Positions 6,499 to 43,813 of a DNA stretch of 64,000 bases are shown in pieces. Below the pieces are notes generated by a model, which saw only the letters and a list, made by a program, of their open reading frames with translations, was not told the DNA's origin and searched no databases. The DNA is from Octopus vulgaris (lineage: Eukaryota). Location: NCBI GenBank assembly GCA_951406725.2, contig OX597816.1, forward strand, positions 172,980,001-173,044,000, given 5' to 3'. Within the stretch, counting starts at the first letter, position 1, and each line of letters begins with the position of its first letter. The translations under genes and the position numbers were made by a program.

Positions 6499-6541
6499 TT
6501 CATTAGCGCTTTCTCCCATTCTAGTGGGGTTTTCAAATGAA
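6499..6541 (-). ncRNA. Minimal type I hammerhead ribozyme, U3:A8 core variant
   Basis: TTCAT-TTGAAAA-C CCCA ctagaa TGGG A-GAAA-GCGC-TA-ATGAA. Stem I TTCAT/ATGAA, palindromic stem III AGCGCT, predicted cleavage triplet CUA. Confidence 0.7.
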
Positions 6542-6704
6542 AATAAGTTCCTTTGCTGGGGATTTTAACCATTTTATAGTTTCTGGTCGTGGTGGGGAGG
6601 AATGTAAGACAGTACAAGAGGGTGAGGTGGATGAGGAGGAAGTGAGAAGTGAGAAGGGGAACATGTGTGTAAAATGATTAAAATCCCCAGCAAAGGAACT
6701 TATT

Positions 6705-6747
6705 TTCATTTGAAAACCCCACTAGAATGGAAGAAAGCGCCAATGAA
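6705..6747 (+). ncRNA. Hammerhead motif, degenerate copy (U16.1 to C)
   Basis: Same motif as 6499-6541, with a stem II mismatch and CA in place of TA at the cleavage site. Confidence 0.55.
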
Positions 6748-7386
6748 CTAAGTGATATGATATATATGTAAAAAAATGTAATATATAAATAAATAAATAT
6801 CTGTAAATACAAACCATCCGATCTTCTGATTACCTCATTTCCTCTAATATATAATATCTGTACATCATCTCCAAACCTTCCAATATATATATATATATAT
6901 ATATATACAGGCATAACTACAGATTTCTGCCACCCCCACCTCCGACTTTGGATGATCATAACTTATAGAAAAATGGATATTTTAAAATGAAATTCGCTAC
7001 AAATACACATCGGGCTATGTAGATTCCGAGAACAGAGGAATTTTTTTGGGGGGGGGAAACAATTTGGGGTTATTTTTGAGAACTGTTCCCCACTTGGGGG
7101 TGTTTCGGAACAAGTCGTCAAAATTTATTTCATTTTCTCCGTTTTGTGCGTTTGTGCATCCGTAGATTTCTACTACTCACATTTCATCGGCCTCAGTACG
7201 TAATTATTATTATTATTATTATTATTATTATTATTATTATTATTATTATTATTATTATTATTATTATTATTAGATCGCTAAGTTAATGGTTGTGTTAGAT
7301 GTACTTTTTCAATTCGGTTGTAAACCGATATTTACATTACATACATATCATACATAAATGTCTGTGTGTATGTGTGTGTGTTTGTA

Positions 7387-8985
7387 CTCAACACCACAGT
7401 AAACTACCACACATGTACGGTCTCCCTAAGATTCACAAGGATGGTATTCCATTAAGGCCTATAGTGAGCTGTAGAGGATCAGCATGTTATCCACTGAGCC
7501 GCTTCCTTGTGGATATAATCAGTCCATTAGCAGGGAAGTCAACATCGTGCGTGAAGAATTCTACCCTCTTCACAGAATTGACCAAGGATGCTACCATTGA
7601 ATCCAACCAGATGGTGAGTCTAGATGTGATAAATATGTTCACCAAAGTCCCAACTGGCGAAGCACTATCGGTGATTCAAGAAAAACTAGCGACGACACCA
7701 TCTAAAAGAATGCACTAGTACACCAGTAAGAAACTTGATGGAAATGTTGACCTTCTGTGTAGAAACTACCTACTTCGGTATGGACACTGATATATATCGA
7801 CAAGAAGCGGGTTTAGCTATGGGTTCGCCATTATCACCCATAATAGCCAATATATACATGGAATACTTTGAGAATTTGGCTTTAGGATCAACACCACTAA
7901 AACCGACCCTATGGCTGCGATATGTTGATGACACCTTTATACTCTGGCCCCACCAGGAAGATATCCAAGTGCTGTTAGATCACGATGGAAAAGGAAAAAG
8001 ACAATCAGCTAGCATTCCTGGCGTATTAATAACGCTCACCTTCACTGGACGATTCCTCATCTTCAACTCCCACCATCCATACAGTGTAAAGAGAGGGATT
8101 GCTCAGTGCCTAAAACATCGAGCAAAGAATATAAGTAGCGATCTTGATACCCACCACGAAGAAATAATCAAGCTTAATAACAATCTATTAAGCAACAGCT
8201 ACCCCATAAACATACTATCCACTCCAATTATGAAGAAAAGGGAGGATGAAACCAATAAATTGTCCACGGTCTGTCTACCCTATGTCTACCCGAATAGATA
8301 CAAAAGTTATGCTACCCATATGACATCAGGACAGTATTCAAAAGTAATACAACACTTCGCAAATATCTCCTTCGAGTAAAACCACCAGTAGAAGAGTATA
8401 TGAACAAAAGCTGCGTGTACTCCATCCCCATACAGCTGTGGTAGGTTATACAAAGGCGAAACATGCCACCCGCTCAAAATAAGGTTAGAGGAACATCACA
8501 AAGCTGTGACACGAGGAGATATTGATAAATCGGGTATAGCTGATCATGTATGGAAAAATGGAGACCACCTTCCCCTGTGGGATGAAGTTAAAATAATGGA
8601 CAGAGAACACCACTGGAAAATACGAAAACTAAAAGAAGCGGCATATATGCTAGGACACAAGAATCTCCTAAGCAGATCGAGTGCAGTTATGAATAGCATA
8701 TGGGAACTGGCGTTAAGGAAGGATAGGAAAATATTAGATTTATAAGCTCTAAAATTCACACCATAATTGCCCATAATTGCTACTAACCCCAAGATTCCGA
8801 GTTCGATTCCAGACAGTGACCTGAATAATAGTAATAACCCAGGTTCGAAATTTCCCCAAGATACCTGATGAAGGCTGGAGGGCATATCAGCCGAAACGTT
8901 GTATTAACAACAAACAAGATGAGGACAAATATCCGTCAAATGTAAATAATGTACATAATTCTTCATCTCTTAAATATAGAACTGT
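7387..8985 (+). mobile_element. Penelope-like element (Penelope/Poseidon-type), 5'-truncated and frameshifted: RT + GIY-YIG + pLTR
   Basis: Motifs YGLPKIHK..PLRPIVS, SLDV..MFTKVP, GLAMGSPLSP, WLRYVDDTF, then GIY-YIG-like CVYSIP..CGRLYKGET and KSGIADH..RKLKEA. Terminal repeat with hammerhead at 8860-8985. Confidence 0.93.
8860..8905 (+). ncRNA. Minimal type I hammerhead ribozyme (canonical core)
   Basis: GATAC-CTGATGA-A GGCTG gagggcatat CAGCC-GAAA-CG-TT-GTATT. Palindromic ACGT stem III. Predicted cleavage after 8900 (GUU). Confidence 0.85.
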
Positions 8986-9943
8986 CTTCGTAATTTTTAT
9001 ATAATATACTCCTACTGGGACAAATACATGTATAAATATATGATATACGACTACCATGCATGTAAATACAGGCGATATCATTATATCATATTTGTACATA
9101 TATCTATACCGTATTGGCAGCAATTGACAAGGGTAGTTTATATTACAACTACCAATGACCAGTTTACTGCAATTGAGGTGTGTATACGCGTGTGTAGAAA
9201 TATACGAATCGCTGCGTATGTGTGTATGTATAATTTGCACATATGTATATATAGTTCATTATGTGTGCAGTTTTGCAATAAATATGCGTACGTATAAAAT
9301 TATAGGCATATACAAACATAAAACACATCTACACTCAAACACATAGACACACACGCGCACGAACGCACACGCACATACGCCACGTACACGTACACATGCA
9401 CACCCACACACGTTTGTAGAAGCAAGTCTCTTGGCCACTAAATTTGATTGGTTTATGTATGTGTCTAAATATCTATTTGTGTATACACTTACATGTATTA
9501 TTTTATATATTTACTTATATATACATGCGTATGTGTGTGTTTATAAGCATATGTTATGAGAGGCGAAAGAGAAAAGAGAGGAGTAAATGCCTGCTCATTG
9601 AGATAAATCCAAAATGGCCAACTAAATATGAGGATTTGGGGTCCATTATATCGTTTCAGATATCATTGGATATCACACGCTATATGATTCTAATATCAGG
9701 CCACTAGCATGATATCAAATTTACAGCATCCTCATCAAGTAGAGCATCGGTAATTGCTGTAAAAAATTCTTTTTTGTGTCTGTTTGTCCCTCTCTCTCTT
9801 GTCCTTCTCCTTACTCTCCCCCTCTCTTTTTCCTCTCTCTCTCTCTCTCTTTCTCTCTCTCTCCCTCTTTCTTTCTGCCCTCTCTCTCTCCCTTTCCTTC
9901 TCTCGTATAGTCTTCTGATAGCTTAGGATTATATATACCTAAT

Positions 9944-10241
9944 TGTGTGTGTGTGTGTGTGCATTGCATGCATGTGTCTTGTGTGTATGTGCGTGCGTGT
10001 GTGGGTGGGTGTGCGCGTGTGCGTGCGTGTGTGTGTGTGTGTGAGTGCGTGTGTGTGTGTATGTGTGTGTGTGTGCGTGTGAGTGTGCATGTGTGTGAGT
10101 ATGCGTGTGTGTATGTGTGCGTGCCTGCGTATGTGTTTATGTGTGTGCGTGTGTGTGTGTGTGCGTGCGTGTGTGTGTGCGTGCGTGTGCGTGTGCGTGC
10201 GTGCGTGCGCGCACGTGTGTGTGTGTGTGTGTGTGTGTGTG
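9944..10241. repeat. Degenerate (TG)n/(CG) alternating purine-pyrimidine tract
   Basis: Direct observation. Confidence 0.95.
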
Positions 10242-10394
10242 TCTTTGTATAACTTATGCCGATGTAAACTATAGAAACAATAAGAAAGTACCACAAATGT
10301 ATCATATAAAGACAATAAAGAATATTTGCCACAAGTTTTGGAACGTCTGGATGTTTCCGTGACTCTTCGCCTCGTCAACCGGTGTTTTATTAAA

Positions 10395-42706: not shown

Positions 42707-43140
42707 CAAAAATCAAACTCAACCCCAAAGTGTTCTTTTCATTTGCGAGGAAACGCAGGGTCATATATCCATATATATATATATACGATATTACTGTGAA
42801 ATCTCCAGATAGATGCCAAATCTTGGCCGAGATACTGCAGAAACAATACTGCTCTGTTTTCAGCAAAAATCCTGATATGGCCGATCTGGGCTGTACAACC
42901 ATATGTGATGTCAACCCCAACACACTATATCGGACATAACGTTTAGTGCCCCTGATGTCTTAGCGGCGATAAACGAACATAAAACACAATTCAGTAGTAG
43001 GCCCCGATAGGTTCCCTGCTTGTGTCCTGAAGGTAGTTTCGACACCAACTTGCATCTCCCCTTGCTAATCTGTGGAGAAACTCACTGGATGCTGGCTATA
43101 TTCCAAAAACCTTCTGTCCCAGTCTGTTGTCCCAGTCAAA
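42707..43140 (+). mobile_element. CR1/Jockey-group LINE ORF2 internal fragment
   Basis: [38 protein letters not shown] and LASPLANLWRNSLDAGYIP across frameshifts. Confidence 0.75.
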
Positions 43141-43149
43141 AGGAAACAA

Positions 43150-43530
43150 AGAACATCTACACACCCTCACCCACATGATTGACCGATGCCTGACCCGTTA
43201 AATTCTTCAGCCACCGGTTCTCAACATACACTGATAAACAGTTTCGCCATGGGCTCTTTACATTAATGACATTAATGACATCATCAAGCAGCATAAACAT
43301 TTTGCAGGAGCCTAGTTCGATTTGTTTTTACTCCTTCCAGCTCCGCCTCTGTTCTGTTTTTGTTTTTTTCCAACGGATTTCCTATTTTCTTCCTGAAGAG
43401 AAAGACACAATATGGTCCCATTATTCAATCGGATTTTGGTAAATTGTGCCTTTCGAAACACGTGTAGAATGAAATAAAACGATTTCTGTTCAATCTGCGT
43501 TCAGCTCCATTTCTTCAATTCACCAATAAT
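43150..43530 (+). mobile_element. pLTR-like element (same family as 57614-58185) ending in (TA)n
   Basis: 43300-43530 is near-identical to 57823-58035. Confidence 0.85.
43386..43474 (+). ncRNA. Type I hammerhead ribozyme with extended stem II
   Basis: TTTCTTC-CTGAAGA-GAAAG a CACAAT (loop of about 31 nt) ATTGTG c CTTTC-GAAA-CACGTG-TA-GAATGAAA. Confidence 0.82.
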
Positions 43531-43723
43531 ATATATATATATATATATATATATATATATATATAACACACACACACAATATATATATATATATATATAT
43601 ATACACACACACACACACACATACACACACATATACTTTTGTGTCCAGGGAGAGTCATTCACTTTTAGTGCGTTATAATTTAACACACTCACCGGTTAAG
43701 TTTCGACTCACTTATTTATTTTT

Positions 43724-43760
43724 CTAAAATTTTCGTTGCGTCATGCAACCTTTTCAATAA
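43724..43760 (-). ncRNA. Minimal hammerhead, U3:A8 core variant
   Basis: TTA-TTGAAAA-G GTTGC atgac GCAAC-GAAA-AT-TT-TAG. Palindromic AATT stem III. Confidence 0.6.
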
Positions 43761-43776
43761 CGGACAGAGTCAACAG

Positions 43777-43813
43777 CTATTGAAAAGGTTGCAAGATGCA
43801 AAGAAAATTTTAG
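43777..43813 (+). ncRNA. Minimal hammerhead, U3:A8 core variant (second arm)
   Basis: CTA-TTGAAAA-GG TTGCA aga TGCAA A-GAAA-AT-TT-TAG. Confidence 0.55.

What the first reader, a model, noticed from the sequence alone, without database searches (positions are those of the whole stretch)
6499..43813. Three families use a compensated U3:A8 hammerhead core (UUGAAAA, UCGACAA)
Seen: the canonical C3-U-G-A-N-G8-A9 core is replaced by TTGAAAA in all three copies of one family (6499, 6705, 27908) and both arms of an unrelated family (43724, 43777). It is replaced by TCGACAA in both pLTRs of the Neptune-type element (13207, 14623). Known: positions 3 and 8 form a Watson-Crick pair in the active fold, and C3U+G8A is a compensatory double change. 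Inference: joint change of both positions in separate families points to selection for catalysis rather than decay. CUGANGA-based searches would miss these motifs. U4C in the third family would be an additional core variant.
Basis: partly seen in the sequence, partly recalled or inferred. Interest (0 to 1): 0.82.

Follow-up and report, generated by a model that had tools for sequence, protein, structure and literature searches.

The report
Known Penelope hammerheads with U-A core
Three families of Penelope-like jumping genes in this animal genome carry a small hammerhead-shaped RNA motif, predicted to cut itself, in which one core base pair is U-A instead of C-G; that swap was already published in 2011 and 2014, so these are new examples of a known variant, and cutting has not been tested.

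Summary
All seven motifs are present and have full minimal type I hammerhead anatomy (none in 10 shuffles). U3:A8 is the family state, not decay of these copies: 68 of 69, 40 of 42 and 88 of 100 copies sampled blind to the core. All three families are Penelope-like elements (GIY-YIG domains 21-33% identical). It is not new. Cervera and de la Pena 2014 report about 1,300 U3-A8 motifs in Penelope-like elements, one with the same UUGAAAA heptamer. Perreault 2011 reports natural U3-A8 and a U4C viroid variant. The scan found both cores before on other DNA. Selection on the 3-8 pair is supported across families (8 of 8 multi-copy families pair: U-A, C-G, G-C). Independent origin in the three families and cleavage are not shown, and the inserted copies decay neutrally. 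By-products outside the window: a G3:C8 family of at least 2,023 copies, and insertion 5' ends that pile up just before the ribozyme, not at the cut site.

The parts
6499..6541 (-). Family 1 minimal type I hammerhead motif, U3:A8 core (U3 at 6536), 5-bp helix I, 4-bp helix II closed by a C.A mismatch, palindromic AGCGCU helix/loop III, A17; intact
   Evidence: two-copy cofold gives the dimeric three-helix fold
6705..6747 (+). Family 1 motif on the inverted arm (U3 at 6710); U16.1 changed to C and one helix II mismatch, likely dead
27908..27950 (-). Family 1 motif, second subfamily (U3 at 27945), 2-bp proximal helix I plus distal 6-bp helix
43724..43760 (-). Family 2 motif, U3:A8 (U3 at 43757), extra G after A9, 5-bp helix II with G10.1-C11.1, AAUU loop III, U17
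43777..43813 (+). Family 2 motif on the inverted arm (U3 at 43780); C11.1 changed to A
13207..13249 (-). Family 3 motif, U3:A8 with C4 (U3 at 13243), in the 3' pLTR; 3' strand of helix I mutated
14623..14665 (+). Family 3 motif in the inverted 5' stub (U3 at 14629); 5' strand of helix I cut by the junction
6403..6883 (.). Family 1 inverted-repeat insertion (minus arm about 6403-6671, plus arm 6670-6850 and a ~30-nt tail) in a TA tract
27808..27988 (-). Short 5'-truncated family 1 insertion
43630..43959 (.). Family 2 inverted-repeat insertion (minus arm 43630-43765, plus arm about 43778-43959 with tail)
13150..14674 (-). Family 3 5'-truncated, decayed Penelope-like element (RT C-terminal part and GIY-YIG remnants on the minus strand, 13150-14627) with inverted stub 14624-14674
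8860..8905 (+). Canonical C3:G8 minimal hammerhead behind a Penelope-like RT and endonuclease remnant (7299-8742): internal comparator, not in the finding

Best explanation
The seven motifs are copies of the minimal type I hammerhead motif carried in the terminal repeats of three families of Penelope-like retroelements, each inherited from a source element with a U3:A8 core pair that likely still supports slow self-cleavage as a dimer or with help from the element's protein. Shown: anatomy, family-wide U3:A8, linkage to GIY-YIG-encoding elements, and pairing at 3:8 in every multi-copy family seen. Inferred: the swap is tolerated because any Watson-Crick pair holds G8/A8 in place in the active fold, so source elements with an unpaired 3-8 rarely multiply. 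Inferred: the RNA starts about 13 nt 5' of the core, reverse transcription begins about 135 nt 3' of the motif, and the many short or inverted copies come from uncleaved, likely capped RNA. The window copies are likely inert: the pairs lie on opposite strands, so one transcript would fold them into a long hairpin rather than a ribozyme dimer, and four of the seven are damaged.
For: Anatomy matches the published descriptor and consensus except for the heptamer. The loop III plus position-17 strings of all three families occur in published examples. Core-blind samples: family 1, 68 of 69 U3:A8; family 2, 40 of 42; family 2, U3 92 and A8 100 of the first 100 of 2,075; family 3, 88 of the 100 listed of 244, C3:G8 0 (hand counts). 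Pfam GIY-YIG upstream of the motif in long copies of all three families (family 3 just under the curated cut-off). Family-level states: U-A in 4, C-G in 3, G-C in 1, no mismatched family (permutation p = 0.0036, not corrected for kinship). G3:C8 needs two transversions and runs against AT drift (97 of the first 100 of 2,023 copies). Predicted dimer fold for family 1. U3-A8 reported active in vitro (PMC3088659 citing its ref 32). In a Penelope-element hammerhead, single 3 or 8 mutants are dead, the G3/C8 double is partly rescued, activity needs the protein, and uncleaved RNA is the main template (PMC11167929). 5' junctions at -47..-31 from the cut site: 40 of 96 (family 1), 29 of 94 (family 2).
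Against: No cleavage data. No clear pile-up of 5' junctions at the cut site: within 3 nt, 2 against 1.0 expected (family 1), and 5 by script (7 by eye) against 2.2 (family 2), where T-run microhomology confounds. Family 1 lacks G10.1-C11.1 and its common subfamilies have only 2 bp of proximal helix I. Family 2 has a 3-bp helix I, and its two-copy cofold does not give the three-helix fold. In family 3, C4 lets the core pair with the 3' strand of helix II (about 10% of the predicted ensemble), and its two-copy MFE is a long duplex, not the ribozyme dimer. U4C lowers activity in vitro. Published cleavage of metazoan minimal hammerheads is low.
Confidence: 0.72

Rival explanations
1. The fold is kept for a non-catalytic job (protein binding, a promoter-proximal RNA signal or a reverse-transcription landmark), and the U3:A8 and C4 cores cut little or not at all.
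For: Insertions come from uncleaved RNA and show no clear cut-site peak. Ribozyme mutants do not impair insertion in vitro (PMC11167929). Naiad and most Chlamys elements spread without canonical hammerheads (PMC8557442). Families 1 and 3 carry further departures.
Against: The 3-8 pair forms only in the active conformation (PMC3884650 passage), and G5, A6, A9, GAAA, U16.1 and H17 are the majority state in every family.
Confidence: 0.15
2. U3:A8 arose once, by nearly neutral AT-biased drift through a U3.G8 wobble, in a common ancestor of these linker-bearing elements; the three families are one event and say little about selection.
For: Both changes are transitions toward A/T in a 36% GC window. 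A U3.G8 example is published (Saccoglossus row). The U-A families with a known endonuclease (1, 2, 3 and a fifth) all look Neptune/Nematis-type, while the C-G motif at 8865 follows an element without that linker.
Against: Endonucleases are only 21-33% identical. C-G and U-A both occur within each of two motif architectures here. Published Cercyon motifs of S. mansoni (4) and S. japonicum share helix II but differ U-A versus C-G. G3:C8 is not explained by AT drift.
Confidence: 0.12
3. Chance look-alikes in AT-rich repeats.
For: TTGAAAA is common (28 in the window). The descriptor gives 13 hits in 1.6 Mb of shuffled sequence. Rfam gives no hammerhead hit.
Against: 0 hits in 10 shuffled windows; same position in the terminal repeat of three diverged elements; a match to published motifs.
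Confidence: 0.01

Closest known systems
Minimal hammerheads (min-HHRs) of metazoan Penelope-like elements, U3-A8 variant of Schistosoma mansoni Cercyon (Cervera and de la Pena 2014, PMC4209133; main-text parts 1-2 of 4 and the whole supplementary PDF text read)
   Same: Type I, extra base after A9, palindromic loop III, U3-A8 (about 1,300 hits), the literal UUGAAAA heptamer in S. mansoni (4), opposite-strand pairs, inverted 5' copy in a truncated element.
   Different: Another host. C4 together with U3:A8, and G3:C8, are in none of the Fig. S3 rows shown. Family 1 closes helix II with a C.A mismatch (the descriptor allows an extra base there).
Natural core variants of hammerheads (Perreault et al. 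2011, PMC3088659; passages and one part of section 3 read)
   Same: Natural U3-A8 covariation; U4C noted as a viroid variant with lower activity in vitro but enough in vivo (citing Ambros and Flores 1998, not held).
   Different: Those are mostly canonical, tertiary-stabilised motifs; U4C there is a single variant, here it is the majority state of a family (88 of 100).
Hammerhead of the Anolis Poseidon element PAc (PMC11167929; passages and section 3 part 2 read)
   Same: Hammerhead in the pLTR, internal start of reverse transcription downstream, tail, insertion from uncleaved RNA.
   Different: C3:G8 core, Penelope/Poseidon clade; G3/C8 there is an engineered rescue, not a natural family.
Neptune and Nematis clades of endonuclease-bearing Penelope-like elements (PMC8557442; passages read)
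   Same: C-terminal GIY-YIG, Cys-rich linker (clear in family 1, longer spacing in family 3, decayed in family 2), microsatellite targets, inverted 5' copies, tail.
   Different: Clade not resolved here; no reference set or tree.

Membership tests
Minimal type I hammerhead of Penelope-like elements | Helix I, core box, helix II, GAAA, short palindromic helix/loop III, U16.1-H17 in order | tested here: met
   met by the family state, broken in four window copies
Minimal type I hammerhead of Penelope-like elements | Watson-Crick pair at 3:8 with G5, A6, A9 | tested here: met
   68 of 69, 40 of 42, 88 of 100
Minimal type I hammerhead of Penelope-like elements | U at position 4 | tested here: not met
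   Family 3 has C4 in 88 of 100; met in families 1 and 2. C4 is a described tolerated variant, so family 3 is a variant member.
Minimal type I hammerhead of Penelope-like elements | G10.1-C11.1 closing helix II (highly conserved, not strict) | tested here: inconclusive
   Met in families 2 and 3, not in family 1; the published descriptor allows the extra base
Minimal type I hammerhead of Penelope-like elements | Located in the terminal repeat of a Penelope-like element | tested here: met
   GIY-YIG and RT remnants upstream on the same strand in long copies
Minimal type I hammerhead of Penelope-like elements | Self-cleavage after position 17, as a dimer or protein-assisted | not testable with these tools
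   Only contigs, no raw RNA reads; junction test shows no clear cut-site peak
Rfam hammerhead families | Gathering score of any Rfam hammerhead model | tested here: not met
   the canonical C3:G8 motif at 8865 is missed too
Neptune clade of Penelope-like elements | CX2-5CxxC linker before a C-terminal GIY-YIG (shared with Nematis) | tested here: inconclusive
   Family 1 CX4CxxC; family 3 a longer spacing; family 2 decayed; definition
Neptune clade of Penelope-like elements | RT phylogeny groups with Neptune | not tested
   No reference sequences at hand; no tree built

The most novel reading that the evidence does not exclude
One animal genome holds amplifying Penelope-type families with three different Watson-Crick pairs at hammerhead positions 3:8 (C-G, U-A and a young G-C family of over 2,000 copies), plus a family-wide U3:A8 + C4 core. 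All are working ribozymes placed 13-20 nt behind a capped start site, so cleavage would remove the cap and limit the element, while uncleaved capped RNA makes the insertions.
Probability: 0.3. Interest if true: 0.5.

Novelty: new member of a known kind. Interest (0 to 1): 0.25.

Why it matters
The headline adds a host, not a concept: U3-A8 cores in Penelope-element hammerheads are in print since 2014. The practical point stands: searches fixed on CUGANGA, and Rfam, miss thousands of motifs in this genome (847, 2,075, 244 and 2,023 pattern matches). The role of these ribozymes in the elements is an open question. This genome offers a natural C-G / U-A / G-C / C4 series for one cleavage experiment, and the 5'-end pile-up gives a testable idea of where the RNA starts relative to the ribozyme.

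Tried and rejected
Rfam scans: only microsatellite look-alikes in the top 150 of 326 rows shown, nothing at gathering score, no hammerhead in six loci. The repeat finder was swamped by microsatellites. A C3:G8 sister subfamily was sought and not found: family 1, 6 C3 copies among 27 non-U3 matches, none with G8; family 2, 1 of 90 C3 copies has G8, as chance allows; family 3, 0 of 100. The 90 C3 copies of family 2 (of 2,075) were considered as a mismatched source subfamily. I rejected this: their tails look like those of U3 copies, and where a second copy with a readable core lies in the same locus it has U3 (L091, L097, L100, L102, L105, L106, by eye). Recurrent T-to-C change is more likely; a fast-mutating ATTG context is recalled from human data, not tested. 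T4 in family 3 as the ancestral state was rejected: C4-to-T (9) and G5-to-A (14) are balanced, as CpG decay gives. A first hint of 5' ends at the cut site (three independent junctions among the 39 rows) did not hold when the anchor lay further downstream. In one search the family-2 values below -150 are unreliable because three of the four references were themselves truncated or inverted copies; only the range -110..+28 was used (58 of 96 and 68 of 94 copies). Linking the G3:C8 family to the endonuclease in L146 failed: that coding region belongs to a fifth, U3:A8 family, and 0 of 29 other copies carry the G3:C8 motif. Expression: no RNA holder listed. Contigs of four runs show no other letter at 6710-6716 at 3% or more but cannot show RNA ends. 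Not held, so not read: Lunse et al. 2017, Przybilski and Hammann 2007, Ambros and Flores 1998. The first is the paper most likely to list C4 or G3:C8 variants, so absence from print is not established. Literature searches. Figures were seen only as legends or PDF text. PMC6155905, PMC6765202, PMC3884650 and PMC2920678 were seen as passages only, and the 2026 retrozyme preprint as part 1 of 5.
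Full report
1. Observation. U3 lies at 6536(-), 6710(+), 27945(-) (family 1), 43757(-), 43780(+) (family 2) and 13243(-), 14629(+) (family 3). A descriptor with positions 3 and 8 left free found these seven, a canonical C3:G8 motif at 8865 that the finding does not mention, and one weak hit without helix I. Ten shuffled windows gave none with helix I of 2 bp or more. 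The window lies at G000:C3:172980001 in a 2.8-Gb, microsatellite-rich animal genome; its repeats look octopus-like to me, which is recalled and untested.

2. What the motifs are. Each sits about 135 nt before the 3' end of a repeat that abuts a TA or similar tract, often as an inverted pair. Long copies carry RT and GIY-YIG remnants upstream on the same strand. Pfam GIY-YIG is met for families 1 and 2 and just missed for family 3 (21.5 bits against 22.6). The endonucleases are 33% (1 vs 2), 25-28% (2 vs 3) and 21% (1 vs 3) identical. A Cys-rich linker of the kind that marks Neptune and Nematis (PMC8557442) is clear in family 1, longer in family 3 and decayed in family 2. So these are three deeply diverged Penelope-like families; the exact clade is not resolved. 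The two family-3 motifs are a 3' pLTR and a 51-nt inverted stub, not two direct pLTRs.

3. Is U3:A8 the family state? Yes. Family 1: 847 exact pattern matches, A8 in 99 of the first 100; only 27 matches genome-wide have a base other than U at 3, 6 of them C, none with G8. In copies found through their tail, blind to the core, 68 of the 69 that reach the core (of 96) are U3:A8. Family 2: 2,075 matches; U3 92 and A8 100 of the first 100; 90 have C3, of which 88 keep A8 and 1 has G8; tail-anchored, 40 of 42 (of 94) are U3:A8. Family 3: 244 matches at up to two mismatches; of the 100 listed, U3 92, A8 95, U3:A8 88, C3:G8 0, C4 88. T4 (9) and A5 (14) are balanced, as CpG decay gives. Counts from search listings were made by hand.

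4. Selection or decay? Within families the copies decay neutrally: G5, which is essential, is changed in 6 and 15 of 100 copies. Agreement among copies only reflects the source element. The evidence for selection is across families. A scan of 0.8 Mb of fetched DNA and one follow-up (not blind to the core: 28 of 29 U3:A8) gave eight families with several distinct copies and a pyrimidine at 4: four U-A, three C-G, one G-C, none mismatched (permutation p = 0.0036). Left out of that count were seven single-copy groups, one further family-1 copy with a local duplication, and one two-copy group with A4 and a G.U state inside family-3 sequence; the shuffled control predicts about 6 chance hits at this size. 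The p value ignores kinship; the minimum is two compensated changes. The G-C family needs two transversions and cannot come from AT drift. Whether families 1-3 changed independently was not tested.

5. Literature. Cervera and de la Pena 2014 (PMC4209133) describe exactly this: a U3-A8 covariation in Penelope-element minimal hammerheads of S. mansoni, about 1,300 hits with a dedicated descriptor, and pairs on opposite strands. Their Fig. S3 lists a UUGAAAA core and the loop III strings of all three families. Perreault 2011 (PMC3088659) first reported natural U3-A8, cites in vitro activity, and mentions U4C as a viroid variant. PMC11167929 shows for an Anolis element that 3 or 8 single mutants are dead, G3/C8 is partly rescued, cleavage needs the protein, and uncleaved RNA is the main insertion template. 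I found no paper with U3:A8 plus C4 as a family state, or with a natural G3:C8 family, but the most relevant paper, Lunse 2017, is not held. The scan's own notes list U3-A8 motifs in at least five genomes, the UCGACAA core in another genome, and G3-C8 motifs in phages and protists; I did not check their DNA.

6. How it likely works. Folding two copies of family 1 gives the dimeric three-helix fold; families 2 and 3 do not give it as the lowest-energy dimer. In family 3, C4 allows a competing core/helix II pairing in about 10% of the monomer ensemble. To look for traces of cleavage I mapped the 5' junctions of copies found by their tail: 96 distinct copies for family 1 and 94 for family 2, taken from the start of the listings of 840 and 1,996 matches. 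Junctions pile up 31-47 nt 5' of the cut site, just before the core: 40 of 58 and 29 of 68 in the usable range, against 7 and 8 if flat. There is no clear peak at the cut site (2 vs 1.0; 5, or 7 by eye, vs 2.2). In family 2 the pile-up has a sharp edge 13 nt before U3. There the base before the edge is G in 15 of 24 copies although the source has C (9 of 18 after dropping six cases where a fold-back or duplication could supply the G, p = 0.006). An extra G is what copying a 5' cap leaves (recalled from LINE work). I infer a capped start just before the ribozyme and insertion from uncleaved RNA, in line. Cleavage, if it occurs, would cut off the cap and about 45 nt; that function is a hypothesis.

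7. Verdict. The feature is real, family-wide and likely functional in the source elements, but it is a published variant in a new host. The window copies are likely inert. The U3:A8 + C4 family and the G3:C8 family outside the window are the only parts that may be unreported. Interest 0.25.

Noticed in passing
L078:508-560 (about G000:C4:11043530); L131-L160, L378-L407: A young ~200-nt repeat with a G3:C8 minimal hammerhead motif (7-bp helix I, G10.1-C11.1, AAUAUU loop III, U17): 2,023 exact pattern matches, G3:C8 in 97 of the first 100, top 40 copies 99-100% identical. It inserts in TA tracts, often as inverted pairs. No coding region was linked. Not in the window.
   Followed up: partly
G3:C8 family, listing: Of 100 listed copies selected for a G or C 12 nt upstream, 78 keep the same 5' edge 20 nt before position 3, and 75 of those 78 have G just before it (hand count). 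This fits a cap-derived G, but the source's own upstream sequence is unknown, so it may be templated.
   Followed up: partly
L146 and L349-L377: A fifth family with a U3:A8 motif (ACCGGU loop III, U.U closing helix II) behind a GIY-YIG with a CX4CxxC linker; 28 of 29 copies U3:A8.
   Followed up: partly
L014, L078, L231; L021, L200: Two C3:G8 families also show C4 in part of their copies (3 of 5 and 2 of 4 hits), so U4C recurs in this genome.
   Followed up: no
window 7299-8905: Decayed Penelope/Poseidon-like element (RT, endonuclease without the Cys linker) followed by a canonical C3:G8 minimal hammerhead at 8865.
   Followed up: partly
window 44101-45515: Another Penelope-like RT remnant with a long open frame (353 aa); no hammerhead found in 45500-46300.
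   Followed up: partly
L100:~1510-1600 (minus strand): Three head-to-tail 44-nt repeats of the family-2 motif, joined next to the predicted cut site through a short inverted piece.
   Followed up: no
window 57733-57917: A long inverted repeat that scores weakly as a plant miRNA hairpin; likely another fold-back insertion.
   Followed up: no
window 15036-15516 (minus strand): RT-like fragments of a different retroelement next to the family-3 stub.
   Followed up: no
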